A stretch of DNA of 64,000 nt from an uncultured Clostridia bacterium. GTDB taxonomy: Bacteria; Bacillota; Clostridia; Christensenellales; Borkfalkiaceae. Location of the stretch: assembly GCA_947630365.1 (NCBI GenBank), contig CANRHI010000001.1, forward strand, positions 3,927 to 67,926, written 5' to 3'. Below are positions 6,373 through 35,203 of this stretch, one piece after another. Position 1 is the stretch's first letter, and every line of letters begins with the position of its first letter. The notes beneath the pieces are model-generated. The model saw only the letters and a program-made list of their open reading frames with translations. It ran no database searches and was not told where the DNA came from. A program made the translations under genes and the position numbers.

Positions 6373-6422
6373 TTTCCCGCCGCGCATTTCGGCGCGCCTT
6401 GCGGGAGATTTGTTTGAAAAAC

Positions 6423-6648: not shown

Positions 6649-6671
6649 GTGAAAAACATTGCGGAGGCGCT

Positions 6672-8851: not shown

Positions 8852-8867
8852 CGCAAAAGGAGAGCAT

Positions 8868-10495: not shown

Positions 10496-10555
10496 TGCCG
10501 TTTTTTTCCAAAATCCCCCACCCATGTCCGAATTCTCTCGGCATGGTATGCCCCG

Positions 10556-10716: not shown

Positions 10717-10729
10717 AATGGAGGCACCC

Positions 10730-11638: not shown

Positions 11639-11650
11639 GGAGGATAGAAC

Positions 11651-12301: not shown

Positions 12302-12760
12302 GGGGGACCCGCAGGAACTACCGCGTCATGTTGAGGGAGCGTAAGCGACCGAAACATCCCGAAGAACGAAGTCCGAAATTTCATCCTCGGGATTCTTCGC
12401 TACGCTACGCTACTTCGCGCTACGCGCTCGTGCCGCCCTTGGAATACAAAAGAAGCTCAGGCGGGGCAGAATGACGCGGTAACACGGGGGCAACCCCCAC
12501 CACCCGCTACGCGGGAGCCGCCCCCTTCAAAGGGGGCAGCTTTACAGCGAATCCCTCCCCCTGTATCCCCCTCCTTAGAAAGGAGGGGGATTTTTGTTGT
12601 AATCCCCTTCCCCTTTGGGGAGGACGCCGCTATCCAATCCCCCTCCCCTTGGGGGAGGGGGACGCAGGGGGGGGACCAAGCGAGCCCTTCCTCGACATGA
12701 CGCGGTAACGCAGGGCCCCCCTCGGCGGGCATAAATTGGGGTGGTGGGACATACCTTACC
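12302..12760. repeat. Intergenic block of mosaic GC-rich hairpin repeats (copy A)
   Basis: 12321-12400 is nearly identical to 20431-20510. Modules GGGGCAGAATGACGCGGTAAC (12463-83), CCCCCTGTATCCCCCTCCTT...AAGGAGGGGGATT (12557-) and CCCCTCCCCTTGGGGGAGGGGGACGCAGGGG recur at the other repeat loci. Confidence 0.9.
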
Positions 12761-12763
12761 TGT

Positions 12764-20329: not shown

Positions 20330-20860
20330 GGGAGATCTTGGCGCCCCTCATATAGGGGAGCCAAGTAAGCCCTCCCACTTATACTTGAGGGGGAGGGGTA
20401 GGGGAGGGGGTGCTCTCTTGAAGAGGCCTACCGCGTCATGTTGAGCGAAGCAAAGCGACCGAAACATCCCGAAGAACGAAGTCCGAATTTTCATCCTCGG
20501 GATTCTTCGCCCCACAAGGGGGCTCAGAATGACGCGTTGGCGCGGGGGGCGGGGCAGAATGACGCGGTAACCTCCCCCTGTATCCCCCTCCTTCGCAAGG
20601 AGGGGGATTCTGTTGTGGCACAACTTGGCGCCCCCTTGAGGGGGAGCCGGCGCGCTGCCCTTGCGCGCCTGAGGGGGTGTCGCTCCGAATATACAACACC
20701 CCTTCCGTCACTCGCCGTGGCTCGTGCCACCCACCCCTCGGAGGGGGTGGGCAAGTCACGCCATCGGACCCCCCTTTCCCGTATTACGGGGAGGCACCCG
20801 TAGGGCGTGCCTTGGCTGGGACACAGGGGGAGGGGCGCCTCATTTTTATCCCTCGAAACA
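20330..20860. repeat. Intergenic block of mosaic GC-rich hairpin repeats (copy B)
   Basis: It shares the 80-bp module with 12321-12400. It also has GGGGCAGAATGACGCGGTAAC (20551-71), CCCCCTGTATCCCCCTCCTT (20574-93), and CGGGGAGGCACCCGTAGGGCGTGCCTTGGCTGGG (20787-20820), which is identical to 23751-23784. Confidence 0.9.
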
Positions 20861-23289: not shown

Positions 23290-23860
23290 TCCGTTCTCTT
23301 GGGATCTCCTCTCATTCGCTCAATCCGACATTGAGCGCAAAGGGCCAAAGCAAATTGGGTGCGCTGCCGCAGGGAGACCCTGCTCCGCGCCGTGATTTGG
23401 AAGCAACCTCCCCCTGTATCCCCCTCCTTAAAAAGGAAGGGGATTCCATCTGCTCTCTCCTTGCGAAGGCGGGGATTTCGTCTGCGCTCTCCTTGCAAAG
23501 GAGGGGGATTTTGCTTATTTCATCCCCATCACCTTTGGGGGGCACCGCTATCGAATCCCCCTCCCCGCCAAATCGGGGAGGGGGACGCAGGGGGAGGGGC
23601 ACCGCAGCGTGAAGCCCTACCCTTCGGGGAAGGGGAGGGTGGCTGCCCTCGGGCAGACGGGTGGGGATGGGCGTGGGGGAAGCGCGAAAGGCAACCCCCA
23701 CCGCCCGCTTGCCCTAAAGCAGCTTTAGGGCAAATCCCCTTCCCCGTTTGCGGGGAGGCACCCGTAGGGCGTGCCTTGGCTGGGATAAAGGGGGAGGGGC
23801 TTCCGATCATGTCATACCGCCATGCCGAGCTTCTTTTGTATTCCAAGGGCGGCATGAACA
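23290..23860. repeat. Intergenic block of mosaic GC-rich hairpin repeats (copy C)
   Basis: It contains CCCCCTGTATCCCCCTCCTT (23410-29), AATCCCCCTCCCCGCCAAATCGGGGAGGGGGACGCAGGGGG, the 34-bp module at 23751-84, and an inverted copy (23828-53) of 12432-57. Confidence 0.9.
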
Positions 23861-23907
23861 GAGTGCTCCGCACCTCTCGATCGTTGGAGGGAAAACGATT
23901 TACGTTC

Positions 23908-25404
23908 TCAAACGGATCTTGTGAGCGTTTCGTACACCTTCACCATGGCGAAGGTGTCGAGCGCGCAGTATTTCAAAAGGTCGTGCTCTGCCTTTGCCCG
24001 CTGTTCGGCGGGCATATTTTTGAGCTTCGGGAAGAGCTCCTTTGCCTCGCTTCCGTTGTGGACGCCCTCCAATTTGTGATAGTCGAGCTCGGGGTCGTCG
24101 GGGAAGAGGGCAGGAAGAACGCTTTTGATGGAAAACGACCCGCCCATGGCACGGATATAATAGTATCCCTTTTGGAAGGGGACGAGCAGATCTTTGATGT
24201 TCTCCTCGATCTTGAGAAGATGCTCGGAGAGATCGGGGAAGATCGCCGCGAGCTCCTTGATGCGCCCGCATTCGAACCCCTTATTATAGACGAGCACGCA
24301 GACGTCGTCGGGAATGTCGGAAACAAGCCGCTCGGCAAGGGCACGCCTCGGGTCCTCCTCACTTCGCCCCAAAAATTCACGGTGTTCAAGCGTCCCGTTC
24401 GGCTCCCGCAAAATGTGCAGGGAATACTGCACGGGGATCTGTTGATAGGGCTTGGTGCCGACATATTGCGGAATGACGGGTTGCACCGACTCGAAATCGA
24501 GAAAATAGAGGGGATAGGTGAGCGTTTGCAAAAATTCCTCAATGCCCTTTTTGTCGATATGGGCGCCCTTGTCCTCGAGGGCATACTCCACCTGACGGCG
24601 GCGGAGCTCGTTGAGCTCGCTCCCATCCTTCAAGACGTCCTCAAAACCGCAGATGCCCCTTTGATACAGCGCAAGCTTTTTCTTGAAGGCAAGGTCGTAC
24701 AGTCCAAAGACGGACGGCGAAGGCAGATCCCGCGTACAATATCCGAAGAAGGCGCAGGGATAGGGCTTGTTGCACGCCATAGATAAATCGATCGTCGGCT
24801 CTTTCGCCGACGCCATGACCTTTTCCGCCTCCTTCAGGCTCTTTTCTACGTCGGCAAGCTCTTCCTCGACGAGGGGCGTGACCTCGGTGATCTTGAAATA
24901 TTTTTGAAGGTCGAGGACGCCGTCAAAGACATAGCTCGTATCGATCGTGACGAGGTAGACGTTTTTCACCCTCACGCCGCATTTTTCGAGGACATATTTT
25001 TGGAAAGAGGTATCGACGATATAGACGTGTTTGTCGGGCGAGGCGCTGCTCTTGACTTCATAGATATCGTAGCCGTCGCCGTTCTTTTTGAGAATATCGA
25101 CGGCGCAATACAGCCCTTGATGGCCGAAGGACGCTTCGCAGATGATTTCCCTTCCCTCGGCGAGACATTGCTTGGTGAGCTCTTTCATCCTCTCGAGGTC
25201 GAGGCTGCCGTCGGGCTTATACGAAGTCACTTCGACGTATTCGCCGAACAGCCCCATCGCAAGATCGCCCACTTCGTTGCCCGCCGCAAAGCGCGCCTGC
25301 GTCTCTTCGTCGACGACGCATTCCTCGGGCTTATACTTTTTGAGCCACGGAATTTTGGGACACTGCTTGAAATCGCAATACTTGGATTTGCTGAAATAGA
25401 ACAT
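23908..25404 (-). CDS. DUF2779-family protein (Cas4-like PD-(D/E)XK N-terminus plus RNase H/DnaQ-like C-terminus)
   Basis: ATG at 25404 after GGGAGA. N-terminus MFYFSKSKYCDFKQCPKIPWLKKY; also YEVKS, YPLYFLDFES, YNKGFECGRIKELA and YCALDTFAMV. Confidence 0.7.
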   Translation of the reverse strand: MFYFSKSKYCDFKQCPKIPWLKKYKPEECVVDEETQARFAAGNEVGDLAMGLFGEYVEVTSYKPDGSLDLERMKELTKQCLAEGREIICEASFGHQGLYCAVDILKKNGDGYDIYEVKSSASPDKHVYIVDTSFQKYVLEKCGVRVKNVYLVTIDTSYVFDGVLDLQKYFKITEVTPLVEEELADVEKSLKEAEKVMASAKEPTIDLSMACNKPYPCAFFGYCTRDLPSPSVFGLYDLAFKKKLALYQRGICGFEDVLKDGSELNELRRRQVEYALEDKGAHIDKKGIEEFLQTLTYPLYFLDFESVQPVIPQYVGTKPYQQIPVQYSLHILREPNGTLEHREFLGRSEEDPRRALAERLVSDIPDDVCVLVYNKGFECGRIKELAAIFPDLSEHLLKIEENIKDLLVPFQKGYYYIRAMGGSFSIKSVLPALFPDDPELDYHKLEGVHNGSEAKELFPKLKNMPAEQRAKAEHDLLKYCALDTFAMVKVYETLTRSV

Positions 25405-25421
25405 GATTTTTTCTCCCGTGT

Positions 25422-26555
25422 TTACTCTTCTTCGTCGTCCTCGGGCTCCTCGGGCATTGCGTCGAGGGAGTAGATATACTCTTCGGCCTCGGGATGGGCC
25501 TTGATCCAGTCGATCAATTTTTGCTTGTGTGCCACTTTCCAATCGTTGCTGAGATAGTATTCTTTCCCCTTGATCTTCAGCGGTGCGGCGTAATACCGCC
25601 TTCCGCCCTTTTCGGCGAGAACGGGCTCGGTGATCCCGAAAATCACCTTACTCTCCTCAATGGTCGTTAATTTCTCGATCTCCTCATCGGGGACAAGCCC
25701 GCTCTCCAACATATTCCTCAGCGCCGATTTGGCGATTTGTCCGACGAGGAGTGCGCCGTAGGCTGCCGCGTCGGGGACCGCAGCGGTGGGATTGGGAAGA
25801 GCGGAGATCGCGGCGCCCTTGCCCTTCTTCCCCGTTGTTCCCTTCCTACCCGTCCCTTTCGCGCTTACGGGCGGGAGAAAGTAACCGAGCAAGTTGAGCA
25901 ACTGATAGGCTCTCATGAAGAGTTCGGCGGTATCGTGTACCTTGCCGCTCACGATGCGGATGGGGTCGATGACTTCGGTGGAAAAGGCGTTGTTGCCGAT
26001 GATCCTAAAGGTGTAATTCAGTCCCGCCCTATGGAAAAAGTCGTTGAGGAAGTCGATGCGGGACGGCAACAGATTGTACACACCGGGGGAAATTGAGGGG
26101 GATGCGAAAACGATCTCCGCCTCTTCCGCTTCGAAGTATCCATACAGACTCAATGCCGTGCGGACACATTTTTCAACCACTTTGCGGTCAGAGACGTTGC
26201 CGCCGACGCCGTGATAGTTCAGTCCGTTTTCATGAAATGCGACGTCGACGGCATAGTACACGGGTTTACCTTCGCGCAGAGCGAAGCCGATGGCGTCGCA
26301 TTCTCCCTGCTTGATAACTTGATGGAATTTTTTCTCGAGAGCCGCTTTTGGGTCTTTCTCGGCATCGATGTCGAAAATGATTTGATGAAACTTGAATTCA
26401 AATTCCGTTCGGACGTCTTTGAACAGATCTTGCAGCTCCGCCACTCTCTTCAGCGTCCAAGCGGGAGAGGCTTTCCAATTATTTTGGACGATCAAGCACT
26501 CCTTCACATGCCGAAGCCACGAGTAAAACAGGGATTCCGCTATTTCAATTTTCAT
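25422..26555 (-). CDS. Hypothetical protein (possible restriction-endonuclease-like N-terminal domain) co-operonic with the DUF2779 gene
   Basis: 377 aa, ending 17 nt upstream of the DUF2779 start. It has E...GECDAIGF...YYAVDVAFHE acidic beta-strand motifs, a K/G-rich linker, a C-terminal RYYAAPLKIKGKEYYLSNDW module and an acidic tail. Confidence 0.6.
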   Translation of the reverse strand: MKIEIAESLFYSWLRHVKECLIVQNNWKASPAWTLKRVAELQDLFKDVRTEFEFKFHQIIFDIDAEKDPKAALEKKFHQVIKQGECDAIGFALREGKPVYYAVDVAFHENGLNYHGVGGNVSDRKVVEKCVRTALSLYGYFEAEEAEIVFASPSISPGVYNLLPSRIDFLNDFFHRAGLNYTFRIIGNNAFSTEVIDPIRIVSGKVHDTAELFMRAYQLLNLLGYFLPPVSAKGTGRKGTTGKKGKGAAISALPNPTAAVPDAAAYGALLVGQIAKSALRNMLESGLVPDEEIEKLTTIEESKVIFGITEPVLAEKGGRRYYAAPLKIKGKEYYLSNDWKVAHKQKLIDWIKAHPEAEEYIYSLDAMPEEPEDDEEE

Positions 26556-26582
26556 AAAATACCCTCCGTAAAATTCATTTTT

Positions 26583-26611
26583 ATTGTACTACGCAAATGT
26601 TTTTTCGTCAA
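26583..26611 (-). promoter_or_regulatory. Sigma-70-type promoter of the hypothetical/DUF2779 operon
   Basis: The minus strand reads TTGACG-17 nt-TACAAT, about 30 nt upstream of the ATG at 26555. Confidence 0.65.
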
Positions 26612-26654
26612 TATCTCTCTTGAAAATAGTACCGAAGGAACACACCCTCAAAGG

Positions 26655-27434
26655 CTATGTCTCTTGGATGTGAAGGTCGAAGAACCGCTTGAGGGCCGCG
26701 GCCTCGGGGTAGGTGATCTTCAGATTTTTCTGCAAAAATGCCGTCGTGATCTTCTCTTCGGGGTGACTGCGCACGAGCGAAAGGGCTGCGCTCCGAAGAT
26801 GGGCGGGGATGCGTCTTTTCGGGGCTTCGGTCGGCACTCGGTCGAGCGCATACATGAGCTCTTCTTCGCTCGCGCAGGCGGCGGCGACTTCCGAAAAAGG
26901 CGTGTCCCCCTTGAGAAGAACGACGTAGCGCTCGATATTTCGGGTGTACCGCGGATGGCGCAGGCGGCGGATCCCCCAGGTGATGTGCTCCTCGAGCTCG
27001 GTCGGGTAAATTTGAAGCTCTTCGCAGATCTCGTCGCAGTTTTTTCTCTCGCAGAAGAGCTTCAAAATGCACTCGCGCTCCATGCGTGGAAAGGCATTCA
27101 GGTTGTTTTTCACCCGTTCCTCCGCGCCCGCTTTGACGAGCAGCGGCCCGCCCAAGATCTCTTCGTAAAGATTTTGCGGCCATGCCTTTTCGCACATTCT
27201 CTTGCAATAGTTTTGGAAGGCGGGGATCTCCTCTTCGAACTTGCAAAGGCGCTCTTTCGCAATGTCGTAGAGCGCTTTCTTCTCCCTTTCGTCGCAGGGA
27301 AGCTCGTCGTAAGAGAGCGCGTAGAGGCGGGAGAGCTCTTCGCCCATTGCCTGCTCCCGCCGTCTGCAATAGTACTGCGCGCTCATGCACTCAAGCTCGC
27401 GTTCTCTCAGTTTCAAAGTAATTTCTTCGTTCAT
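26655..27434 (-). CDS. DNA-binding protein: sigma-70 region-4-like HTH plus C-terminal FtsK-gamma-like winged helix
   Basis: ATG at 27434 after AGGAGGA, overlapping the LRR gene stop (ATGA). ERECILKLFCERKNCDEICEELQIYPTELEEHITWGIRRL resembles sigma region 4. ITTAFLQKNLKITYPEAAALKRFFD resembles the FtsK gamma motif. Confidence 0.5.
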   Translation of the reverse strand: MNEEITLKLRERELECMSAQYYCRRREQAMGEELSRLYALSYDELPCDEREKKALYDIAKERLCKFEEEIPAFQNYCKRMCEKAWPQNLYEEILGGPLLVKAGAEERVKNNLNAFPRMERECILKLFCERKNCDEICEELQIYPTELEEHITWGIRRLRHPRYTRNIERYVVLLKGDTPFSEVAAACASEEELMYALDRVPTEAPKRRIPAHLRSAALSLVRSHPEEKITTAFLQKNLKITYPEAAALKRFFDLHIQET

Positions 27435-28297
27435 ACATTTCCTCCTCGATCTCTTCTCTTGCAGTTGAATTTGATCTTGTAGCCGTCGAGCCGGCCGCCC
27501 GCTTTGTCGATCTCGATTGCGTTCCATTCCTCTTCGGTGCCCCCGAAGAGAATGCAACCGTGGTCATCTTCATATTCGGTAAGCGGCGGAAACGCATTGC
27601 GGCCGATATATTTCACGGACTTCGGGACATAGAAGTCGCGCGGGAAGCAGTATTTGTATGTTTCTTCTTTGATGATGAGGACGCTCTCGGGCAGATCGCA
27701 CACGGATGCGACTTGGGAAAAGACGTTGCTCTCGATGACTTTAAGGTCTTTGGGAAGTTTGGTGATGGAAAGCTCGGTGCAGCCCGCGAACGCCGCTTCG
27801 CCGATGGAGACGACGGAGTCGGGGATCTCCAATTCACGGAGAGAGGAACAGCCCGTGAACGCCGCCTCGCCGATGGTCTTTAACGTTTCGGGCAGGCGGA
27901 CGAGCTCGAGAGACGTACAGCCCGAAAAGGCGCCGCTGCCGATGGAGAGGAGCCCTTGCCCGAAGGCGCTGTAGACCAAAACAGCTTTGAGATTCGGGCA
28001 GCCCGCGAATGCCCCGTCGAGAATTTGGGCTGCGCCGAAGATCAAGATGCCTTCGAGAGCCTCATTTCCCGCAAAGGCGAAACTGCCGATGGTATCGCAA
28101 TCGGTGATGCGGAGATGTTTGCATTTGCCCCGATAGCGCATGAGGACATTTTTCCACTCCTCAAGATCGGGCCAAAGACCCGCATGGCCGACTTGGACGT
28201 AATCGCGGACGGCGCACTCGGCGAGATCGTCCGTCGAAAGGTCCCACGACGCGGTGCACTTTTTGGCGCGTTCTTCGATGTTTCTTTTTTCGATCAT
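27431..28297 (-). CDS. Cytoplasmic BspA-type leucine-rich-repeat (LRR_5) protein
   Basis: ATG at 28297 after AAGGAGAAT. No signal peptide. Repeated ...IG..AF.GC..L..(I/V/L).(I/L)P... units (FAGNEAL, FAGCPNL, FSGCTSL, FTGCSSL, FAGCTEL). Confidence 0.75.
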   Translation of the reverse strand: MIEKRNIEERAKKCTASWDLSTDDLAECAVRDYVQVGHAGLWPDLEEWKNVLMRYRGKCKHLRITDCDTIGSFAFAGNEALEGILIFGAAQILDGAFAGCPNLKAVLVYSAFGQGLLSIGSGAFSGCTSLELVRLPETLKTIGEAAFTGCSSLRELEIPDSVVSIGEAAFAGCTELSITKLPKDLKVIESNVFSQVASVCDLPESVLIIKEETYKYCFPRDFYVPKSVKYIGRNAFPPLTEYEDDHGCILFGGTEEEWNAIEIDKAGGRLDGYKIKFNCKRRDRGGNV

Positions 28298-28426
28298 ATC
28301 ATTCTCCTTTTTGATTTTTTCTCGATTTTGCACTTCGGTTTTTTGTGTGTTCTCTCTTTGGATACCCCTTTTTTCGCGGTAGCTTTCACGATTTTTGCAA
28401 TGCGCCCGCCCGCGAACGTCGCACGC

Positions 28427-28435
28427 AGTATAGCA
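28427..28435 (-). promoter_or_regulatory. Extended -10 element TGCTATACT upstream of the LRR operon
   Basis: The minus strand reads TATATGCTATACTGCG, the same 9-mer class as in the 50-bp array and at 29198-29206. Confidence 0.45.
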
Positions 28436-28534
28436 TATAGGCGTAAAAAAATGGGACGTCAAGTCCCATATGTCTGAAATACAAAATTGCAGATGTGAAA
28501 AATTTATCTCCGCGCCGCCCTTTCCCCAAACGTT

Positions 28535-29131
28535 CTACTGCTCAAATTCTTCGGGATAGACGCCGATATACCTTCCATCTCCGAGGAGCGCGATTACTTT
28601 TGCTCCCCCTCGGAGATAAAAGTAGAAATCTTCCACGATCGCAAGATAGCGGTAGAAGGTCGTGCGGGCGATGTGAAATTCGGCACAAAACTTGTTTCTT
28701 TCGACGCCGTCCTCCAATCTGTCGTGCAGGGCGAGAAGCGCGAGATATTTGCGGTTTGAGGGAGTGTCGTGATAGGTGTTGCCGTCCTCGCTGTAGATCC
28801 CGTAGTATTCCCGCATGATCGCAAGCAGCCTGCGGAAATTGGAGTGACTTATCTGCCGCATTTTGCAAAAGGACTCGGGATCCACATGGTCGGGGTCTCC
28901 GTCCGCTTCGAGAGCGAAAAAGAAGAGATTGCGTATTTTTTCGATCGTCGGGGTCTCTTTGATGTGCGCGCGCTCCCCTGCGCGCGTATAGTAAATGTTT
29001 GTTTCGGTGCGATAGGAGAAATCCTCGCCATCGGATATGTCCCAACGGTTGTCCCGATCGTCGCAAACCACATCATGATCTTTGGAGCATTTTTGCTTGG
29101 GATCCGCTTTCAAATACCTTCTCTTTCCCAT
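28535..29131 (-). CDS. Hypothetical protein with two HTH-like segments (putative regulator)
   Basis: 198 aa. QISHSNFRRLLAIMREYY and FHIARTTFYRYLAIVEDFY resemble HTH recognition helices. It is divergent from the repeat array. Confidence 0.5.
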   Translation of the reverse strand: MGKRRYLKADPKQKCSKDHDVVCDDRDNRWDISDGEDFSYRTETNIYYTRAGERAHIKETPTIEKIRNLFFFALEADGDPDHVDPESFCKMRQISHSNFRRLLAIMREYYGIYSEDGNTYHDTPSNRKYLALLALHDRLEDGVERNKFCAEFHIARTTFYRYLAIVEDFYFYLRGGAKVIALLGDGRYIGVYPEEFEQ

Positions 29132-29197
29132 ATCCCTTCTACCGTTTCACCGTTTGACCGTTTTACCGCTATCCTTTCCGACGCGGTTTTCGCAAGT

Positions 29198-29206
29198 AGT
29201 ATAGCA
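29198..29206 (-). promoter_or_regulatory. Extended -10 element TGCTATACT upstream of the HTH gene
   Basis: The minus strand reads TTTTATGCTATACTACTTG, about 65 nt upstream of the ATG at 29131. Confidence 0.45.
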
Positions 29207-29276
29207 TAAAACAAATCGGAATACAAGTGCAGAAATCGACGAAGCCATTCGGGGGGGGGTAGACAGCACGAAACGC

Positions 29277-29650
29277 GTGTGCTATAATGGAGGCGGAAAT
29301 TCGTCCCGGCGCAAAACGGGGGGTGCATGTGCTATAATGGGGGCGCAAATTCGTCCCGGCGCGAAATGGGGAGGGCGTGTGCTATACTGGGAGCGCAAAT
29401 TCGTCACGGCGCAAAACGGGGAGCGTGTGTGCTATAATGGAGGCGCAAATTCGTCCCGGCGCGAAATGGGGGGTGCGTGTGCTATAATGGGGGCGGAAAC
29501 TCGTCCTGACGCAAAACGGGGAGCGCATGTGCTATAATGGGGGCGGAAATTCGTCCTGCCGCGAAATGGGGAGTGCGTGTGCTATAATAGGGGCGGAAAT
29601 TCGTCCTGCCGCGAAATGGGGATGATGTGTGCTATAATGGGGGCGCAACA
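29277..29650 (+). repeat. Exact 50-bp-period tandem array (7 full units plus a partial eighth), each unit carrying GTGTGCTATAATGG (extended -10 consensus)
   Basis: GCTATAATGG (GCTATACTGG at 29381, GCTATAATAG at 29581) starts at 29281, 29331, 29381, 29431, 29481, 29531, 29581 and 29631. Unit consensus: GCTATAATGGGGGCG(G/C)AAATTCGTCC(C/T)G(G/C)CGC(A/G)AAA(C/T)GGGGAG(T/C)GCGTGT. The period is not a multiple of 3. The array ends 49 nt before the nuclease ATG. Confidence 0.95.
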
Positions 29651-29698
29651 AAAGGAAACGTTCGGCGCAAGCCGTTCAAAAAATACAAGGAGGAACAT

Positions 29699-31051
29699 AT
29701 GAAACACAAAACGGCAACTTTAAGTCAACTGCAAAGTTTTGCTCCCGATTTCTCCGAGCTCAAAGCGCAACTGGGGAAATTCAATTTCTTTCGGAGCGTT
29801 CGGATGCAGACGATGGAGACGCGGCACAGCAATGTTCTTGCTTTCCTGTTGGACAGCAAAGAAACACACCGGCTCGGCAATGCTTTCGCACAGGCATTTT
29901 TCTCCGCAGTTTTTGCAAATGCGGGAAAAGAAATCGCCGAACGAATGCAACTGGGTGGAGAGAGGGAAGTAGGCGACTTCTTTCAAAAAGGAGGCTTCCG
30001 CTTCCTCATTGAAAGAGAACACCCGTTTATCGACGAAAACGGAAAAAGACGGTTTATCGACCTTTTATTGATTGCGGAGGACCCGACCTATCCCGTGCTC
30101 ATCTGCATTGAGAATAAGGTTATGTCGTTTCAGCACGACGGTCAATTAGAGGCGTATGAAAAGCATGTTCTGAGTTTGAAAAAATATGAGAATTACAAGA
30201 AGCTGTTTTTGTATCTAACGCCGACGAAGGAAATTGTCGGGGGAGATCAATGGATCAAGATTTCCTATGAGCCTGTCCTTCAAGCGTTGGATGAAACGTT
30301 AATGAAGTACCCGCAAGTCGACAACGAAGTAAAAATCTATCTTACACATTATCAAGAAATTATCAGGAGGGATATTATGAACAACGACCCTATTATCAGA
30401 CAACTTTGCGCGAAATTGTATAATCCGGAGAGAGAAGTTTATCAAACAATTTTCAAGTACATGCTCGGGAGCGAGAAAGAGGCGCTGACCGGTGCAATCG
30501 TCGAAAAACTTGATGCTTTGCGGAATATCGGTGAGATTGAGCTTATCTCCTCTTCAACAAAATCGAATCATACCGAGTTCAAATTTGTGACGAAAAGTTT
30601 GTTGGAGATACTTCCCTACGAGGAATCGCAAAAGAAAACGCGAGTATGGCAGTCCCAAAGCAGAATCGTGTATGAGATTGTCGTTACGAACAGTGACGGA
30701 TTCCCGGACAAGATCACGTTCTGTGCCGTTCTTGTCACAGGGGACAATGCGATCGATAATCAATTCACGCCTCAAATTATAAATATATGCAATGCTCATC
30801 GCAAAGAATTCCGTTTGGGGGATAAACCCATAGAGCGTACCGAGAAACAGAAACACAATAAGCTTCTCACCAAAATATACAACGAAGGCAACGGTTTATC
30901 CGTGCCCGACTCGATTACCGACGGTGAATTCCTTCGGGATTTGGAAAAAGGCATAGATGCCTTTATCAATGATCTAAAGGAGCATCTGGAAACCGTGCTT
31001 AAAAACGAGATAACGAGCACCTCTATGCCGAGCACCCCCGCGCAGCCCTAA
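29699..31051 (+). CDS. PD-(D/E)XK nuclease family protein (PDDEXK_4-like)
   Basis: ATG at 29699 after AAGGAGGA. The N-terminal motif FNFFRSVRMQTMETRHSNVLAFLLDSKETHRLGNAF is typical of this family. Catalytic-core-like RFIDLLLIAED...ICIENKV (D...ExK). Confidence 0.7.
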   Translation: MKHKTATLSQLQSFAPDFSELKAQLGKFNFFRSVRMQTMETRHSNVLAFLLDSKETHRLGNAFAQAFFSAVFANAGKEIAERMQLGGEREVGDFFQKGGFRFLIEREHPFIDENGKRRFIDLLLIAEDPTYPVLICIENKVMSFQHDGQLEAYEKHVLSLKKYENYKKLFLYLTPTKEIVGGDQWIKISYEPVLQALDETLMKYPQVDNEVKIYLTHYQEIIRRDIMNNDPIIRQLCAKLYNPEREVYQTIFKYMLGSEKEALTGAIVEKLDALRNIGEIELISSSTKSNHTEFKFVTKSLLEILPYEESQKKTRVWQSQSRIVYEIVVTNSDGFPDKITFCAVLVTGDNAIDNQFTPQIINICNAHRKEFRLGDKPIERTEKQKHNKLLTKIYNEGNGLSVPDSITDGEFLRDLEKGIDAFINDLKEHLETVLKNEITSTSMPSTPAQP

Positions 31052-31072
31052 CTCCAACCAAGGGAGAACACT

Positions 31073-32023
31073 ATGCCGAAAACATTTTCAGAAGAAATCT
31101 GCTCTGTGGTCGCGGAGGAGAAGGGGTCGCTTACGTCGAAGATCCTCTACGAGATGTGCGACGAGCGGCGCTACCCGTGGGGCGGGGAAGGGCAACTGAA
31201 AGACAAGCTCCGCATCGTCTGCGGGGTGTACGGGCTCATCCTCCGCGAAAACTATCTTTGCTATGCCGCGAAGAACGGGTGGTCGCGCCACAGACGCGTC
31301 GACGTCGAGACGGCGATCGCGGACATGGTTATGGGAAATTCCGCCTACGGTCCTTTCGTGGAAAGACTTGCGGCGTGCAAAGAGAAGTATGCCTTCGACG
31401 GCGGCGCGGGCGATATGGCGCTTCTTCAAAAAAGCGTCGGCCTTGTCTTTGAGCTGAACGATCTCCTCTGCAATGCGGTCAGCGCGTATGACGGGCTCTA
31501 CCGTCAGCCCAAGCGGAACAGGGGCAACTTCTATGCGCTCTCCGCGCGCATGTTGCACCTTCATCGGCCCGAAGCGGTGTTCCCTTACGGAAAGGGCATC
31601 CGCGACGGCATGATGCACTTCCGCAACCCCGTCGGATGTCGGCTCGGAGAAGCCGTCTTGGAGGGCGCGGACAAAGACGAGATACGGGCGGCGTTTTACG
31701 AGGCGTTTACGGGGCTCGGCGCGCTTGCCGAAGGGAAGCCCGATCTCTCGCCCGAATGGATGTATCTTTCGGCGACGGCGTTTTCGTATGCGCTCTGCCG
31801 CTACGTTTCCTCGCACGGCGGTTCGCCCGAGGGGCTCTTCCCGACTGCCCTCTCCGCCGCGGTCGTCGAAAAACTTCAACGGGTACTGACAGAAGAAGAG
31901 ATCGAAAAGATCGCACAGCAGATCCAACGCGATATGCCCATCGAAGAGGCGCGGCTGTACTGCCGCGACGCGGTGGAATTCGAGCAGGTCTTTATGGCGC
32001 GCTGTGCCCAAGACCCAAAATAA
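31073..32023 (+). CDS. Hypothetical protein
   Basis: 316 aa with coding-like composition, 21 nt after the nuclease stop. No motif recognised. Confidence 0.6.
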   Translation: MPKTFSEEICSVVAEEKGSLTSKILYEMCDERRYPWGGEGQLKDKLRIVCGVYGLILRENYLCYAAKNGWSRHRRVDVETAIADMVMGNSAYGPFVERLAACKEKYAFDGGAGDMALLQKSVGLVFELNDLLCNAVSAYDGLYRQPKRNRGNFYALSARMLHLHRPEAVFPYGKGIRDGMMHFRNPVGCRLGEAVLEGADKDEIRAAFYEAFTGLGALAEGKPDLSPEWMYLSATAFSYALCRYVSSHGGSPEGLFPTALSAAVVEKLQRVLTEEEIEKIAQQIQRDMPIEEARLYCRDAVEFEQVFMARCAQDPK

Positions 32024-32024
32024 T

Positions 32025-33134
32025 ATGGACTTCACAAAATTTCTCAACTCAAAGGATATTGCAACCCATCTCCGCCGTATCCGCTATGAATTCACGCCCG
32101 AACAGGCAATGTATGTCATCCATGCGGCGGCGGAGGCCCCTCTCCCCGAGCGGCACGCCGCCTATGAGGAGCTCATCGAGGCGTACCCCGACCACGCCCT
32201 GCGCGAGCGGCGGCAGGGGGTGTTCAAAAATCAGACGGTCGCTTCCTTCCTCCGCACCTATATGGAGCGGGAGAACGCGCTTCTTGCGGAATTCAAGCGC
32301 GACGGAGACGACGCCGTCTGCGTTTACGATTACTTTTCCAAGGAAGACGACGCTTGGTTTCAGGACGGGTACGGCCACCACTCTGTGTATCGCAATTTTT
32401 CCGAGGCCATGGACGACGTGCAATCGGAAAATGCGGACGGGAATATCGCAAAGATTACCGTCACGAAGCAATATTTTTCGGGCAGAATCATCGAGGCGAC
32501 CCTGCTTCCCGACGGCACGTGTCTGAAATTGGACGGGATAAACGGCGAACGGGATGAGGCGTTCCTGCATGCCTTCGATTGGATGTGGGTCAGCATTCCC
32601 ACGCCCTTCAAGTACGGCGACATCCTCGCACCCGTCCGGCAAAACAGGTGGGACCCCGGCACAACAGACGGCTCCGTCAAGGGGATGATCGTCCTCACGG
32701 ATATGGCAACTTGGGGCAGCAAAGAGCTCAAAAAGAACGGCTTCCGCAACGCCAAGACGTCAAATTTTGCTCGCAAGGAGCAAAATTTTGCGGTCCGCGA
32801 CAGGCTCATCGAAAAACACGGGGAATACGGCGACGAGACGGATATGCTCCTCTGCGGCTACTCTCTCGACGGAAGCGATATCTGCTACGACCATACAGAC
32901 CAAAGCTATCTGAACTACGAGCGCTTTCGCGGCGAACTCAAAGGGCATAACAAGATGCTCCGCTCCCTCTCCAATTTCCTCAAGGGGGAAATCGACTTGG
33001 GGCTCATGCTCAGAGCGCACCGCATCATCTGCGCCGAGGAGGAGTGCCGTGAGAAGAGGTCCTTCCTTGACCTCTATACCGACGAGGGCCTAACTCTCGC
33101 GGGACTTCAAAAACGCAATCAACAAAATCAATAA
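32025..33134 (+). CDS. Hypothetical protein
   Basis: The ATG at 32025 lies 1 nt after the upstream stop (an alternative GTG at 32004 would overlap). 369 aa. No motif recognised. Confidence 0.6.
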   Translation: MDFTKFLNSKDIATHLRRIRYEFTPEQAMYVIHAAAEAPLPERHAAYEELIEAYPDHALRERRQGVFKNQTVASFLRTYMERENALLAEFKRDGDDAVCVYDYFSKEDDAWFQDGYGHHSVYRNFSEAMDDVQSENADGNIAKITVTKQYFSGRIIEATLLPDGTCLKLDGINGERDEAFLHAFDWMWVSIPTPFKYGDILAPVRQNRWDPGTTDGSVKGMIVLTDMATWGSKELKKNGFRNAKTSNFARKEQNFAVRDRLIEKHGEYGDETDMLLCGYSLDGSDICYDHTDQSYLNYERFRGELKGHNKMLRSLSNFLKGEIDLGLMLRAHRIICAEEECREKRSFLDLYTDEGLTLAGLQKRNQQNQ

Positions 33135-33149
33135 GAAGGAGAAAAAGCA

Positions 33150-33689
33150 ATGTACGATCCGAGAAGCGAAGAAGTTTTGAAACTCAAAGCGCGCGCCCTC
33201 TGCGGGGAATATCTCCCGAAAGAAGCCGATTCTCGGGGCAACGATCGGGACTTTACGCGGCTCCCCAAGTCTGCCCTCGAAAAAGCGCACAGCGTCAATG
33301 CGGGGAATCGTGTGGACATGACCGAAGAGGAAGATGCCCTGTGGGGCGACCTTCAAGATGCGATCGATGCGCAATTTTTCGATCTGCTCACGGCGTTCCC
33401 GGAGTATTTTACGGGCGATCCCGATGATGAATTTTTGACCTTGGGCAAGGGACTTACCACGCGGACGGGGGTCGCGGAAAAGGTCGAGCGGCAGCGCGCG
33501 CTCGCAACGCCCTCCGAGGCATGGCCGAAGGAGCGGCAAGACGCATACCGCGCACGCATGGCATATCTTTTTGCAAAGCGGCGCATCGACGGGTTAAAGC
33601 GCGAGATCGAGTGGTCGGAGAAATATTTGCGCGCCATGAAAGCCTACATTCTCGAAATGTATCCCGACTGCCTCGGTGAGGATTTTTAA
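33150..33689 (+). CDS. Hypothetical protein
   Basis: 179 aa, with an AAGGAGAAAAAG RBS. Helical and acidic. No motif recognised. Confidence 0.6.
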   Translation: MYDPRSEEVLKLKARALCGEYLPKEADSRGNDRDFTRLPKSALEKAHSVNAGNRVDMTEEEDALWGDLQDAIDAQFFDLLTAFPEYFTGDPDDEFLTLGKGLTTRTGVAEKVERQRALATPSEAWPKERQDAYRARMAYLFAKRRIDGLKREIEWSEKYLRAMKAYILEMYPDCLGEDF

Positions 33690-33693
33690 CACC

Positions 33694-34584
33694 ATGAAAC
33701 GCCGTGTGTTCGCCTACGTTGAGGACAATTTCCAAAAGAACAAGCCCGATAGGGTGCTCGCCATAGACGAGACGGGCGAGCGTTTGTTCTGCTATGAAGT
33801 GGACAACCGCGGGAAGGGAGAAAGCTACGAGGAGCAATTCGTAAACGACAAAGCGCATTCGCCCGCAGCCGTTGCCTTTGCGGCGTTCGAGCGCTTCTGT
33901 AAGGAGGAGTGCGGCATAAAGGATTGCAACGACGAGGTGATCTTTTCGGGGGGAAAGAATATTCCGCCGAAAACCCTCGCTGATTATTTCGAATTTCGGT
34001 TGGGCGGCGCGGACTGGGTGTATGTGTGGGAGATCGGGTTCGAGTACCGCTTCGAGACGGCGCATCTCGAACATCCCATCGGCTTCAAAGAATTCCGCAA
34101 GGTCCATACAGAGGGGCTCACAGAGCCCTACGCCACCCGCGCGCTCTATGCAAAGTACAGAGAACACATTCATAAAGATGCCTACACGGAAGAGGAGCTC
34201 GACCGCATGGAGCAAGCCGTGTTCTCCCGCCTCGATATGGCTTACCGCCGTCGGCGCAGCAGGTCGGATCCGAGTATCTATATCGCCGAAACCTGCGCCG
34301 CGATCTACCGAGGCGACCAAGCACGTTTTCGTCGCGTTGTGGAAAGGATCGTCGCCGATCACGCAAGAAGGCGTTCCAAAAGGAAACGTTGGGTGCTGCA
34401 ATACATCCTCGAGACGATCGCCGACAGCATCTATTGCGACGGAGAGATCGACCTCGCTTCGCTCGATGAGGAAGAAAAAAAGCCGCCCCTCGAGCGGAAG
34501 GAGTATGCGATCTTCGCGGGGCTTTCCCCCGATGCGCTTCCCCTCGTAAAAGAATCGATCGAGGAATATGTAAATTGGAAATAA
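33694..34584 (+). CDS. Hypothetical protein
   Basis: The ATG at 33694 lies 4 nt after the upstream stop (alternative GTG at 33676). 296 aa, with an Arg-rich segment RRRRSRSD / RRRSKRKR. Confidence 0.6.
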   Translation: MKRRVFAYVEDNFQKNKPDRVLAIDETGERLFCYEVDNRGKGESYEEQFVNDKAHSPAAVAFAAFERFCKEECGIKDCNDEVIFSGGKNIPPKTLADYFEFRLGGADWVYVWEIGFEYRFETAHLEHPIGFKEFRKVHTEGLTEPYATRALYAKYREHIHKDAYTEEELDRMEQAVFSRLDMAYRRRRSRSDPSIYIAETCAAIYRGDQARFRRVVERIVADHARRRSKRKRWVLQYILETIADSIYCDGEIDLASLDEEEKKPPLERKEYAIFAGLSPDALPLVKESIEEYVNWK

Positions 34585-34587
34585 ACT

Positions 34588-35067
34588 ATGGACTCGCGCA
34601 TTTTGTTTTTGGATTACGACGGCGTCGTCAACACGCCGATGTGGAACGAGAGGGGCACAAAGGTCTCCTACGGCTTTCCCGAGGACGGGAAAGTCAACAA
34701 CTTTCAGGCGGTGCAGTGGGTCTCGCAGTTTTGCCAGAAGTGCAAATTCGATATCGTCGTCACGAGCTCCTGGCGGGAAGAGAGGAATTATCGGGAATGT
34801 TTGACGGAGGGCGGCTTGCGCGGGAATATCGCCATCGCGGGCGCGCTTCCCCTCGACGAAACCAAATCGCGCGGGGACCTCATCCGCGCCTATCTTCTTT
34901 CGCACCCCGAGATCAAGTATTACATCATCGCGGACGATGAGGAGGACCTTCTTCCCGAACAGCTTCCGCACCTCATCAAAACGAACGCCTGCTACGGCTT
35001 TTTGGAGCCCGAATACAAACGCTGCGTCGCACTGTATATGAAGTTTCAGAGCGGGGTGAAAGAGTAA
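34588..35067 (+). CDS. HAD-superfamily phosphatase-like protein (HAD_SAK 'Swiss-army-knife RNA repair' type)
   Basis: Motif I FLDYDGVVN, motif II VVTSSWR, SRGDLIRAYL, and motif IV-like YIIADDEEDL. 159 aa, starting 3 nt after the upstream stop. Confidence 0.6.
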   Translation: MDSRILFLDYDGVVNTPMWNERGTKVSYGFPEDGKVNNFQAVQWVSQFCQKCKFDIVVTSSWREERNYRECLTEGGLRGNIAIAGALPLDETKSRGDLIRAYLLSHPEIKYYIIADDEEDLLPEQLPHLIKTNACYGFLEPEYKRCVALYMKFQSGVKE

Positions 35068-35174
35068 GAAGAAGGCATGCGGCTCTTTGCCCCTGCGCGG
35101 CTTTCACAAATTCCATTTCGAACATGGAAAAATTTCATAAGTTTGTTTCCGAGGGACATTTTTTGAAAGAATTC

Positions 35175-35203
35175 TTGATTTTCGGGGGCGTATCGGGTAT
35201 AAT
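35175..35203 (+). promoter_or_regulatory. Sigma-70-type promoter of the DUF5054-like gene
   Basis: TTGATT (35175-80), a 17-nt spacer, then TATAAT (35198-203). Confidence 0.6.

What the first reader, a model, noticed from the sequence alone, without database searches (positions are those of the whole stretch)
23908..26611. Two-gene operon: unknown 377-aa protein plus DUF2779 nuclease/exonuclease-like protein, with its own strong promoter
- A TTGACG-17-TACAAT promoter precedes the two genes, which are separated by 17 nt.
- The first protein has N-terminal acidic strand motifs (GECDAIGF...YYAVDVAFHE) compatible with a restriction-endonuclease-like fold. It also has a Lys/Gly-rich linker, a conserved-looking C-terminal module (RYYAAPLKIKGKEYYLSNDW) and an acidic tail.
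- The second protein is a DUF2779 member. That family combines a Cas4-like PD-(D/E)XK part and an RNase-H/DnaQ-like part, and its biological role is not established.
- The pair sits in an AT-richer island next to other nuclease and DNA-binding genes.
- This makes it a plausible uncharacterised nucleic-acid-targeting (defence or anti-defence) module.
Basis: partly seen in the sequence, partly recalled or inferred. Interest (0 to 1): 0.6.

Follow-up and report, generated by a model that had tools for sequence, protein, structure and literature searches.

The report
Unnamed nuclease-like gene beside DUF2779 nuclease
Two neighbouring genes in a variable, AT-richer island of a gut Clostridia genome are real and probably co-transcribed, but they are not a fixed two-gene system: the 377-aa protein belongs to a large, unnamed, usually stand-alone family that looks like a defence-type nuclease with a swappable C-terminal module, and the DUF2779 double nuclease travels on its own.

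Summary
On the minus strand there is a TTGACG-17-TACAAT site, a 377-aa ORF (25422-26555), a 17-nt gap with an RBS, and a 498-aa DUF2779 ORF (23908-25404). They lie in a 53% GC island with 62% GC flanks.

The "two-gene module" reading is mostly not supported.
- The 377-aa protein has at least 2177 relatives (50%-identity clusters) across many phyla. It matches no Pfam, NCBIfam, PHROG or PADLOC model.
- DUF2779 is adjacent in 3 of 80 genome loci and 0 of 20 viral loci.
- In the window's genus, 11 of 37 genomes carry DUF2779 and 3 of 37 carry the 377 family. Only 2 have them adjacent, and one has the 377 gene without DUF2779.
- No other partner is conserved.

What the proteins look like:
- Confident AlphaFold models (pLDDT 83 and 91) have no significant structural neighbour. 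The weak top hits are mostly PD-(D/E)XK nucleases (MspJI, Avs4, Can2, BamHI).
- The C-terminal ~100-aa module is mobile. It is duplicated, followed by an MGMT-like DNA-binding domain, or attached to TIR or unknown N-termini.
- Neighbours are often restriction or defence genes.

Best reading: two independent pieces of conflict-island cargo. The first is a candidate single-gene effector-plus-sensor nuclease. The second is a solo Cas4-like/DEDDy exonuclease.

The parts
26583..26611 (-). Sigma-70-like promoter candidate: TTGACG (26611-26606), 17-nt spacer, TACAAT (26588-26583)
   Evidence: sequence; 10 of 12 matches, best site in the region; 4 sites found against 2.3 expected by chance. Function is inferred, not shown.
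26562..26567 (-). GGAGGG ribosome-binding site, 6 nt upstream of the ATG of the 377-aa gene
   Evidence: read directly from the sequence.
25422..26555 (-). Gene for the 377-aa protein, a member of a large unnamed family (typical length about 340 aa)
   Evidence: 978+ hits; 2177 cluster representatives at E<=1e-3, 568 at <=1e-30. No Pfam, NCBIfam, PHROG or PADLOC match.
25881..26555 (-). N-terminal domain (residues 1-225). It is an alpha/beta domain with invariant E4, E7, R15, H16, Q24, N26, W27, Q79, Q83, E85, D87, H108, K129 and R132, and near-invariant D104. It is the putative effector (nuclease-like) domain.
   Evidence: Alignments. AlphaFold2 pLDDT 90.8, pTM 0.89. Foldseek best hits are Avs4, MspJI, Can2, MunI and BamHI, all non-significant (E>=0.026, TM<=0.31).
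25785..25880 (-). Lys/Gly/Thr-rich disordered linker (residues about 226-257)
   Evidence: pLDDT below 50 for residues 225-256. Length and sequence vary in the family alignment.
25458..25784 (-). C-terminal module (residues about 258-366; RYY..P..I.G..Y.L...W motif). It is a mobile domain of unknown fold class and the putative sensor or nucleic-acid-binding part.
   Evidence: pLDDT 90-98. Found without the N-domain behind TIR (L077, P0267, P0269) and behind other N-termini. Duplicated in P0016 and P0047, and followed by PF01035 in P0022, P0024 and P0027. No Pfam hit in 69 members even at E<=10.
25425..25457 (-). Acidic tail (DAMPEEPEDDEEE), specific to the window's clade
   Evidence: present only in P0001-P0003.
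25405..25421 (-). 17-nt intergenic spacer with a GGGAG RBS (25417-25413). No terminator-like site lies between the genes.
   Evidence: Co-transcription is inferred.
23908..25404 (-). Gene for the 498-aa DUF2779 protein. It has a Cas4-like PD-(D/E)XK half (about 24730-25404; D103, E116-V-K118, Q135xxY, and four Cys: C15, C211, C217, C223) and a DUF2779/DEDDy exonuclease half (about 23911-24507; D303-F-E305, N374...E378, Y479...D483).
   Evidence: PF11074 4e-46; Cas_Cas4 4e-5; PADLOC Cas4 3.5e-9; these residues are invariant in 5 homologues at 42-80% identity. Literature: PMC13621843 and PMC3985635.

Best explanation
The two genes are separate pieces of accessory cargo. They happen to sit head-to-tail, and are probably co-transcribed, in one lineage of a gut Clostridia genus. 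They are not an obligate two-gene system.

Gene 1 (377 aa) belongs to a widespread, unnamed, normally stand-alone family with two parts joined by a disordered linker:
- The N-terminal ~215-aa domain is extremely conserved. It has a cluster of invariant acidic, basic and histidine residues and a restriction-endonuclease-like look. I infer it is the effector and most likely cleaves nucleic acid.
- The C-terminal ~100-aa module can be duplicated, extended by an MGMT-like DNA-binding domain, or attached to TIR or other N-terminal domains. I infer it is the targeting or sensing part and most likely binds DNA or a phage-derived cue.

I therefore read the family as a single-protein defence-type nuclease, analogous in logic to Type IV restriction enzymes or to effector-sensor fusions.

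Gene 2 is a solo Cas4-like (4Fe-4S, D...ExK) nuclease fused to a DEDDy 3'-5' exonuclease. All catalytic residues are intact. It moves independently among the same kind of islands.

Shown: the gene structures, family sizes, lack of conserved pairing, domain mobility, island context and intact DUF2779 motifs.
Inferred: nuclease activity of the 377-aa protein, a defence role, co-transcription, and any co-operation between the two proteins.
For: Pairing is not conserved:
- 3 of 80 genome loci, 0 of 20 IMG/VR loci, and none on a Priestia plasmid.
- In the genus, DUF2779 is in 11 of 37 genomes and the 377 family in 3 of 37. They are adjacent only in G000 and G033.
- G024 (L002) keeps the upstream synteny and the 377 gene but lacks DUF2779.
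- Six DUF2779 orthologues at 73-77% identity sit elsewhere without the 377 gene.
- In a class-wide sample, DUF2779 is in 30 of 399 genomes and the full-length 377 family in 2 of 399.

Stand-alone family:
- No neighbour cluster recurs outside the species-level synteny of Campylobacter concisus.

Defence or mobile context:
- Immediate neighbours match UzuA (5), PDC-S01, PDC-M10B, PDC-S48, PbeA, RmrA, DEDDh and Cas4 models.
- Serine recombinases and MobL relaxases are nearby.
- A Priestia megaterium plasmid copy lies between a Dcm methyltransferase and a MutH/Sau3AI-family endonuclease, in a cluster that also holds a Sau3AI enzyme and an SNF2 protein.
- The L077 copy lies beside three TIR genes.

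Domain mobility.

Structure:
- Confident models.
- Top-ranked, non-significant hits are mostly PD-(D/E)XK nucleases.

DUF2779 nature.
Against: - No structural or profile match for either domain of the 377-aa protein is significant. Best Foldseek E is 0.026 with TM<=0.31. There is no canonical (D/E)xK triad: the sequence reads D104-V-A, with K129 on the next helix.
- No experiment or named defence-system model covers the family.
- In C. concisus the gene sits at one fixed chromosomal position, which is less island-like.
- Co-localisation with DUF2779 is rare but far above random placement. I count three independent events: the window lineage; L077 with the reversed order; and G337, where a C-module protein lies 5 kb from DUF2779. 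That compares with about 0.03 expected, Poisson P about 3e-6. Some functional synergy cannot be excluded.
Confidence: 0.6

Rival explanations
1. One reading: in this lineage the 377-aa protein and DUF2779 work together as a two-component nucleic-acid-targeting (defence or anti-defence) module. For example, the 377-aa protein recognises or nicks the target, and the Cas4/DEDD double nuclease degrades it.
For: - The 17-nt spacing has an RBS and no terminator.
- The pair is kept at about 80% nucleotide identity in two related genomes.
- An independent adjacency exists in L077, in the opposite gene order.
- A C-module protein lies 5 kb from DUF2779 in G337.
- That makes three events against about 0.03 expected under random placement.
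Against: - 77 of 80 genome loci and all 20 viral loci lack DUF2779.
- L002 has the same upstream block and the 377 gene but no DUF2779.
- 9 genus genomes have DUF2779 without the 377 family.
- The gene order is not fixed.
- Clustering at a few per cent is what unrelated defence genes show in shared islands.
Confidence: 0.15
2. The 377-aa family is not a defence nuclease. It would be a DNA-binding or DNA-repair/maintenance factor, or a selfish addiction element, carried by mobile DNA. Its conserved N-domain would have a non-nucleolytic role.
For: - There is no significant match to any nuclease.
- The motif is non-canonical.
- C. concisus has a fixed chromosomal location.
- Some members carry MGMT-like (repair-type) DNA-binding fusions.
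- Copies occur on plasmids and (pro)phage contigs.
Against: - The distribution is patchy: 3 of 37 genomes in the genus and 2 of 399 in the class.
- Neighbours are enriched for restriction and defence genes.
- The same C-module is attached to TIR, a typical immune effector.
- The invariant acidic/His/Lys constellation is typical of metal-dependent nucleases.
Confidence: 0.15
3. The 377-aa family is a phage- or MGE-encoded counter-defence or superinfection-exclusion factor rather than a host defence gene.
For: - 20 IMG/VR viral contigs encode it.
- A C-module protein sits next to a phage portal gene in G079.
- Two plasmid copies exist.
Against: - There is no PHROG match and no significant BFVD match.
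- 315 genome loci compare with 20 viral loci.
- Most contexts are chromosomal islands with host-type restriction-modification or defence genes.
Confidence: 0.05

Closest known systems
DUF2779 / PF11074 family (e.g. MMSYN1_0389 of JCVI-syn3.0; NCBIfam UU173 family)
   Same: Gene 2 matches PF11074 over the whole model (E 4e-46). It has the Cas4-like N-terminal half with D...ExK, QxxxY and four cysteines, and a DEDD-type C-terminal half with Y...D. This is the fusion described in PMC3985635 and PMC13621843.
   Different: The mycoplasma member is quasi-essential and keeps only two cysteines. Here the gene is accessory (11 of 37 genomes in the genus, 30 of 399 in the class), keeps all four Cys, and lives in variable islands. 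The UU173 model is matched only weakly (49.5 bits against a cut-off of 225).
Solo Cas4 nucleases (CRISPR-independent Cas4)
   Same: The N-terminal half of gene 2 hits Cas4 models (PADLOC PDLC01447 at 3.5e-9; Pfam Cas_Cas4). No cas gene was seen among the neighbours scanned.
   Different: It is fused to a DEDDy exonuclease domain, is about 500 aa rather than about 200, and is not associated with Cas1/Cas2.
Type IV / modification-dependent restriction enzymes of the MspJI type (PD-(D/E)XK nuclease plus a separate DNA-reading domain)
   Same: The two-domain logic is shared: a nuclease-like domain plus a separable binding module. It is a single gene in a restriction/defence neighbourhood. MspJI is among the top Foldseek hits. 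Some family members add an MGMT-like base-flipping DNA-binding domain.
   Different: The hit is non-significant (E 0.03-0.1, TM about 0.3). The domain order is reversed: the nuclease-like part is N-terminal here. There is no SRA, EVE or YTH-type reader. The C-module matches no known domain, and the catalytic motif is non-canonical.
Effector-sensor fusion immunity proteins with swappable effectors (e.g. Avs4 with an Mrr-like nuclease; TIR-domain defence proteins)
   Same: The same C-terminal module is found behind the nuclease-like domain, behind TIR, and behind unknown N-termini. Avs4 is the top Foldseek hit of the N-domain.
   Different: There is no STAND NTPase and the proteins are much smaller (about 340 aa). 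The sensor module is novel. No ligand or trigger is known.
PADLOC candidate PDC-S26 (PDDEXK_4 single-gene candidate) in the same island
   Same: It is also a single-gene PD-(D/E)XK-type candidate in the same AT-richer island (29627-31051).
   Different: It is an unrelated family. The 377-aa protein hits no PADLOC model at all.

Membership tests
DUF2779 (PF11074), gene 2 | Significant full-length match to the PF11074 domain model | tested here: met
   E 4.2e-46, 156.8 bits against a cut-off of 23.3; model positions 1-126 of 126, residues 300-425.
DUF2779 (PF11074), gene 2 | Cas4/RecB-like PD-(D/E)XK N-terminal half with D, ExK and QxxxY motifs and an Fe-S cysteine set | tested here: met
   Cas_Cas4 at 3.9e-5 and PADLOC Cas4 at 3.5e-9. 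D103, E116-V-K118, Q135..Y, and C15, C211, C217, C223 are invariant in 5 homologues. Binding of the cluster is not testable here.
DUF2779 (PF11074), gene 2 | DEDD(h/y) 3'-5' exonuclease residues in the C-terminal half | tested here: met
   D303-F-E305, N374..E378 and Y479..D483 are invariant. The L077 homologue also hits RNase_H_2 at 1.7e-5. Assignment of roles follows PMC13621843 and PMC3985635. Activity was not tested.
CRISPR-associated Cas4 (adaptation module), gene 2 | Located in a cas operon with cas1/cas2 and a CRISPR array | tested here: not met
   None of the neighbours scanned in 21.5-48 kb has a Cas domain. The rest of the genome was not searched for cas genes.
PD-(D/E)XK nuclease superfamily, N-domain of the 377-aa protein | Restriction-endonuclease-like alpha-beta-beta-beta-alpha-beta core shown by a significant structural match | tested here: inconclusive
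   The model is confident (pLDDT 90.8). The best PDB hits are Avs4 (E 0.026), MspJI (0.03), Can2, MunI and BamHI, with TM<=0.31. BFVD top hits include DUF5889, DUF2726, UL24, Mrr-like and Cas4, all with E>=0.01.
PD-(D/E)XK nuclease superfamily, N-domain of the 377-aa protein | Catalytic D...(D/E)xK signature on strands beta2 and beta3 | tested here: inconclusive
   Invariant E7, E85 and D87, near-invariant D104, and invariant H108 and K129. However, the third motif reads D-V-A, with the lysine on the following helix. Model coordinates could not be inspected.
PD-(D/E)XK nuclease superfamily, N-domain of the 377-aa protein | Sequence-profile match to any PD-(D/E)XK family | tested here: not met
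   No Pfam, NCBIfam, PHROG or PADLOC hit at E<=0.01. A PDB profile search found nothing. hhalign against the Cas4-like half of DUF2779 gave probability 0.5%.
Known anti-phage defence systems (PADLOC-DB v2.0.0), 377-aa protein | Match to a model of a known or candidate system | tested here: not met
   0 families at E<=0.01. The L077 homologue also has none. Newer catalogues could not be searched.
Obligate two-gene system (377-aa family plus DUF2779) | Conserved adjacency or co-occurrence across unrelated genomes | tested here: not met
   3 of 80 genome loci, 0 of 20 viral loci; dissociated within the genus.
HARE-HTH (PF05066), C-terminal module (a lead from memory) | Profile similarity to HARE-HTH | tested here: not met
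   No PF05066 hit in 69 C-modules at E<=10. hhalign against an alignment of 21 HARE-HTH segments gave probability 0.3%.
Type IV (modification-dependent) restriction enzymes | Cleavage that depends on modified DNA, with a recognised modification-reader domain | not testable with these tools
   Only indirect hints exist: the MspJI top hit and MGMT-like fusions in P0022, P0024 and P0027.

The most novel reading that the evidence does not exclude
The 377-aa family would be a previously undescribed, widespread single-gene anti-phage or anti-plasmid system. A novel ~100-aa sensor or DNA-reading module would direct a very divergent restriction-endonuclease-like effector. Other proteins couple the same module to TIR NADase-type effectors. 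In a few lineages, including this one, the system would have recruited a Cas4-DEDDy double exonuclease (DUF2779) as an accessory degrader. That would also give DUF2779 its first functional context.
Probability: 0.3. Interest if true: 0.65.

Novelty: new member of a known kind. Interest (0 to 1): 0.45.

Why it matters
The 377-aa protein represents a sizeable family that no domain, annotation or defence database names. It has at least 2177 clusters at 50% identity and occurs in Bacillota, Campylobacterota, Bacteroidota, Actinomycetota, Pseudomonadota, Cloacimonadota and Chloroflexota.

- Its predicted structures are confident, yet they have no significant neighbour among solved or viral structures.
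- Its C-terminal module is shared with TIR proteins. That pattern, one sensing part with interchangeable effectors, has repeatedly marked real immune systems.
- If the family is confirmed, it would add a compact, easily testable defence gene and a new sensor domain.
- Knowing that DUF2779 is an independent, mobile island resident here, rather than a partner, also helps frame this long-uncharacterised double nuclease. In minimal mycoplasma its homologue is quasi-essential.

As it stands the finding is a well-documented candidate, not a surprise. Stand-alone nuclease-like genes in defence islands are common.

Tried and rejected
1. Conserved partner. An all-against-all clustering of ORFs in 80 loci found no neighbour shared outside Campylobacter concisus synteny. 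Pfam tallies of 117 immediate neighbours were led by HTH_3 (4) and DUF2779 (3).

2. Known family for the 377-aa protein. Pfam, NCBIfam, PHROGs and PADLOC all gave nothing. A PDB sequence-profile search returned only a chance myoglobin hit at E 1.8.

3. Structure searches. The full model against PDB and BFVD, and the N-domain alone against PDB, gave no hit at E<=0.001.

4. C-module as HARE-HTH (recalled from memory). Rejected by hhalign, probability 0.3%, and by a Pfam scan of 69 modules at E<=10.

5. hhalign of the N-domain against the Cas4-like half of DUF2779 gave probability 0.5%.

6. Region-restricted homology search with the window's own C-module found only its two closest relatives, because its words are clade-specific. 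The same search with the TIR fusion found just two more TIR fusions.

7. A PDB profile search with the DUF2779 alignment gave only chance hits at E>0.1. I disregard them.

8. Rfam on 19.5-30 kb gave no RNA family.

Full report
**1. What is in the sequence**

Both genes lie on the minus strand.
- The first ORF runs from ATG 26555 to TAA 25422 and encodes 377 aa.
- A GGAGGG RBS lies 6 nt upstream of its ATG.
- TTGACG-17-TACAAT lies at 26611-26583.
- The promoter scan ranks this site best in 23300-27800 (10 of 12 matches). It found 4 sites where shuffles give 2.3, so the promoter is plausible but not proven.
- The second gene is listed mechanically as a 544-aa TTG ORF. Homologues align from MFYFSKSKY, so the real start is ATG 25404, giving 498 aa ending at 23908.
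- That leaves exactly 17 nt (25405-25421), with GGGAG 8 nt before the ATG and no terminator-like hairpin between the genes. Co-transcription is therefore likely, but it is inferred.
- The island 23860-35200 has 53.3% GC, against about 62% on both sides.

**2. Gene 2 is a typical, apparently intact DUF2779 protein**

- It matches PF11074 over the whole model (E 4e-46) and Cas_Cas4 (4e-5). It also matches PADLOC Cas4 models (3.5e-9).
- I aligned it with four homologues at 42-80% identity. All of the following residues are invariant:
  - the Cas4/RecB signature D103, E116-V-K118 and Q135..Y;
  - four cysteines (C15, C211, C217, C223);
  - the DEDD-type residues D303-x-E305, N374...E378 and Y479...D483.
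- This fits the literature. PF11074 is family F.17 of the RNase-H-like 3'-5' exonuclease clade and co-occurs with a DUF83 PD-(D/E)XK domain (PMC3985635).
- The quasi-essential MMSYN1_0389 of JCVI-syn3.0 was recently described as a Cas4-like plus DEDDh/y fusion of unknown role (PMC13621843).

**3. Gene 1 belongs to a large, unnamed family**

- The 377-aa protein has no hit in Pfam, NCBIfam, PHROGs or PADLOC.
- It nevertheless has 978+ relatives in the word-indexed search. All are "hypothetical" and typically 325-350 aa.
- An exhaustive profile search found 2177 50%-identity cluster representatives at E<=1e-3, of which 568 are at <=1e-30.
- Members come from Clostridia, Campylobacter concisus and C. 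showae, Bacteroidales, Actinomycetes, Accumulibacter, Cloacimonadota, Anaerolineae and Bacilli.
- Within lineages the family is patchy: 3 of 37 genomes in the window's genus and 2 of 399 genomes sampled across the class for the full-length form.
- It also occurs on 20 IMG/VR contigs and on two Priestia megaterium plasmids.

**4.

- Among 80 genome loci carrying a family member, tblastn with the window's DUF2779 protein finds a neighbour in only three.
- L001 and L003 are close relatives of the window, with about 75-81% nucleotide identity across both genes.
- L077 is an unrelated Lachnospiraceae MAG. There DUF2779 (46% identity) lies immediately upstream rather than downstream.
- None of the 20 viral loci has DUF2779.
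- L002 is the 61%-identical homologue in genome G024. It shares the upstream HTH_7, LRR and sigma-like block with the window, but it has no DUF2779.
- Within the genus, 11 of 37 genomes carry DUF2779 (13 copies), and only G000 and G033 have it next to the 377 gene.
- Six orthologues at 73-77% identity sit in unrelated contexts.
- In L120, a 47% DUF2779 copy lies beside homologues of the window's LRR, PDC-S26, p316 and p376 genes. DUF2779 is therefore one of a pool of cargo genes shuffled among these islands.
- Class-wide, 30 of 399 genomes have DUF2779, and only the window's genome pairs it with a full-length 377-family gene.
- The pair is thus not an obligate module.

One caveat remains.
- In G337, a 457-aa protein carrying only the C-terminal module lies 5 kb from a DUF2779 gene.
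- This gives three independent co-localisations in about 70 independent loci, against about 0.03 expected for random placement (Poisson P about 3e-6).
- I attribute this mainly to shared residence in conflict islands. The G337 island also holds an LRR_5 protein, a PARG-cytidylyltransferase fusion and a metallophosphatase.
- An occasional functional synergy is not excluded.

**5. No other fixed partner, but a recurrent defence or mobile neighbourhood**

- Clustering all ORFs of the 80 loci shows shared neighbours only within C. concisus. There the gene sits at one chromosomal position, which is species synteny.
- Elsewhere the flanks differ locus by locus.
- Of 117 immediate neighbours, 5 match UzuA (Uzume). 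These lie directly downstream on the same strand in L010, L026, L036, L038 and L053; in L032 the UzuA-like gene lies two genes downstream.
- Pairs of neighbours match PDC-S01, PDC-M10B, PDC-S48, PDC-M69A, PbeA, RmrA, DEDDh and Cas4.
- Pfam adds ResIII/helicase, GIY-YIG and MobL among the immediate neighbours. Serine-recombinase-like genes (my reading of the sequence) lie within a few kb in several loci.
- On plasmid pBP01R2b the gene lies between a Dcm methyltransferase and a MutH/Sau3AI-family endonuclease. A Sau3AI restriction enzyme, another restriction endonuclease, a toprim protein and an SNF2 protein are within 7 kb.
- In L077 it is followed by three TIR-domain genes.

**6. Anatomy of the 377-aa protein**

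- AlphaFold2 gives a confident two-domain model: pLDDT 83 and pTM 0.78 for the whole protein, with residues 225-256 disordered. The N-domain alone gives pLDDT 90.8 and pTM 0.89.
- The N-domain runs alpha1(2-17), beta(22-28), two helices, a beta-hairpin (85-94 and 97-105), a long helix (121-141), beta(145-152), helices (157-160 and 163-176), and beta(180-187).
- Its invariant residues across 46 sequences include E4, E7, R15, H16, Q24, N26, W27, Q79, Q83, E85, D87, H108, K129 and R132. D104 is nearly invariant.
- The first 28 residues are almost identical across phyla, even though overall identity is about 40%.
- Foldseek finds nothing significant in PDB or BFVD. Even so, the top of every list is dominated by PD-(D/E)XK enzymes.
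  - From PDB: MspJI, Avs4, Can2, Cap4, the hantavirus cap-snatching endonuclease, MunI, BamHI, SgrAI and FokI.
  - From BFVD: DUF5889, DUF2726, UL24, Mrr-like and Cas4.
  - All have E 0.01-1 and TM<=0.31.
- I take this as weak support for a very divergent restriction-endonuclease-like fold. Membership of the superfamily is unproven, and the canonical (D/E)xK motif is not present as such.

**7. The C-terminal module is a mobile domain**

- An HMM of residues about 258-360 finds the module without the N-domain in several proteins:
  - twice in tandem behind a TIR domain in L077:7659-9065;
  - in two further TIR proteins, P0267 and P0269;
  - behind unannotated N-termini in G337 (457 aa) and G356 (361 aa);
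  - in a 345-aa prophage-borne protein with DUF1413 in G079.
- Inside the family it is duplicated in P0016 and P0047.
- In P0022, P0024 and P0027 it is followed by a PF01035 MGMT-type DNA-binding domain.
- It matches no Pfam model in any of 69 members, even at E<=10.
- My recalled resemblance to HARE-HTH was tested and rejected.
- One targeting or sensing module with exchangeable effectors is the architecture of many immune proteins. That is the main basis for my mechanistic proposal.
- The window's clade differs from the bulk of the family in three ways:
  - an 11-residue insertion near residue 65;
  - loss of the NNDRPYL motif;
  - an acidic tail, which is also present in L002, the locus that lacks DUF2779.

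**8. Mechanism proposed**

Shown: the anatomy, the distribution, the lack of a fixed partner, the domain swapping, and the intact DUF2779 motifs.

Inferred:
- The 377-aa protein acts alone. Its C-module binds DNA or a phage cue, and its N-domain cleaves nucleic acid with metal-ion catalysis by E7, E85, D87 and D104, with H108 and K129 assisting.
- The DUF2779 protein is an independent Cas4-like/DEDDy end-processing nuclease.
- When the two are co-expressed, as here, DUF2779 could degrade ends made by the first enzyme. Nothing requires this.

Confidence:
- about 0.9 that the pair is not an obligate system;
- about 0.55 that the 377 family is a defence-type effector;
- about 0.5 that it is a nuclease.

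**9. Comparison and novelty**

- Gene 2 is an ordinary member of a known, uncharacterised family.
- Gene 1 is a member of an undescribed family. By context and architecture the family fits the known kind "single-gene nuclease-like defence candidates in islands".
- Its domains are not assignable to any curated family.
- Notes from other windows of this scan independently flagged the same family as a stand-alone gene in AT-rich islets. These are leads, not evidence.

Overall this is a solid candidate for experimental testing, of moderate interest. The specific "two-gene operon as a system" claim is largely refuted.

Noticed in passing
window 20569-20836 and 23405-23800: Two direct-repeat pairs bracket the ZIP transporter and SDR genes, just downstream of the DUF2779 gene. 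One pair is 65 nt at 89% identity and the other is 42 nt at 90%. The repeats are G/C-rich, and the second block coincides with the island boundary. No Rfam family matches.
   Followed up: partly
L077:7659-12352: Three consecutive TIR-domain genes follow the 377-family gene. The first is TIR plus two tandem copies of the family's C-terminal module. An unannotated 725-aa gene overlaps the start of the upstream DUF2779 gene by 4 nt.
   Followed up: partly
L010:7047-7898, L026:2139-2996, L036:7033-7884, L038:2285-3142, L053:7036-7881 (also L032:7919-8749): A UzuA-like (Uzume) gene of about 283 aa, with a GIY-YIG-type C-terminus, lies directly downstream of the 377-family gene on the same strand in five to six loci from different families of Bacillota. 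Serine recombinases are often nearby. This is the most frequent neighbour outside Campylobacter.
   Followed up: partly
L110 (G337:C106) 1719-14687: A conflict-type island holds several genes: an LRR_5 protein; a 457-aa protein with the C-module only; a metallophosphatase; a DUF6939-like protein; a cytidylyltransferase-like plus microbial PARG fusion; and DUF2779.
   Followed up: partly
L012, L017-L019, L021-L024, L028, L029, L037, L040, L042, L043: In Campylobacter concisus and related MAGs the family member occupies one fixed chromosomal position. It lies between an EamA-like transporter gene and a KdsA-like gene (my reading of the sequences). It is therefore species-level core-like there rather than island cargo.
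   Followed up: no
P0022, P0024, P0027 (homologues of 440-451 aa): Some family members carry an extra C-terminal PF01035 (MGMT-type DNA-binding) domain. It has PCYKV in place of the canonical PCHRV. This hints at recognition of alkylated or modified bases.
   Followed up: no
L142 (Priestia megaterium plasmid pBP01R2b, NZ_CP092389.1 93576-108583): The family member WP_241097397.1 is embedded in a dense restriction cluster. The cluster holds a toprim protein, a restriction endonuclease, a Sau3AI enzyme, two Dcm methyltransferases, a MutH/Sau3AI-family endonuclease and an SNF2-related protein.
   Followed up: no
L120 (G015:C10) 5508-11552: A second, 47%-identical DUF2779 gene in a genome of the same genus lies next to homologues of the window's LRR, PDC-S26-like, p316 and p376 genes. 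The island cargo is evidently reshuffled within the genus.
   Followed up: partly
window 26655-28462: The upstream LRR_5 gene (no obvious signal peptide) and the sigma-region-4-like 300-aa gene overlap. They are conserved together with the 377-aa gene only in the closest relatives (L001, L002). They are not linked to the family elsewhere.
   Followed up: partly
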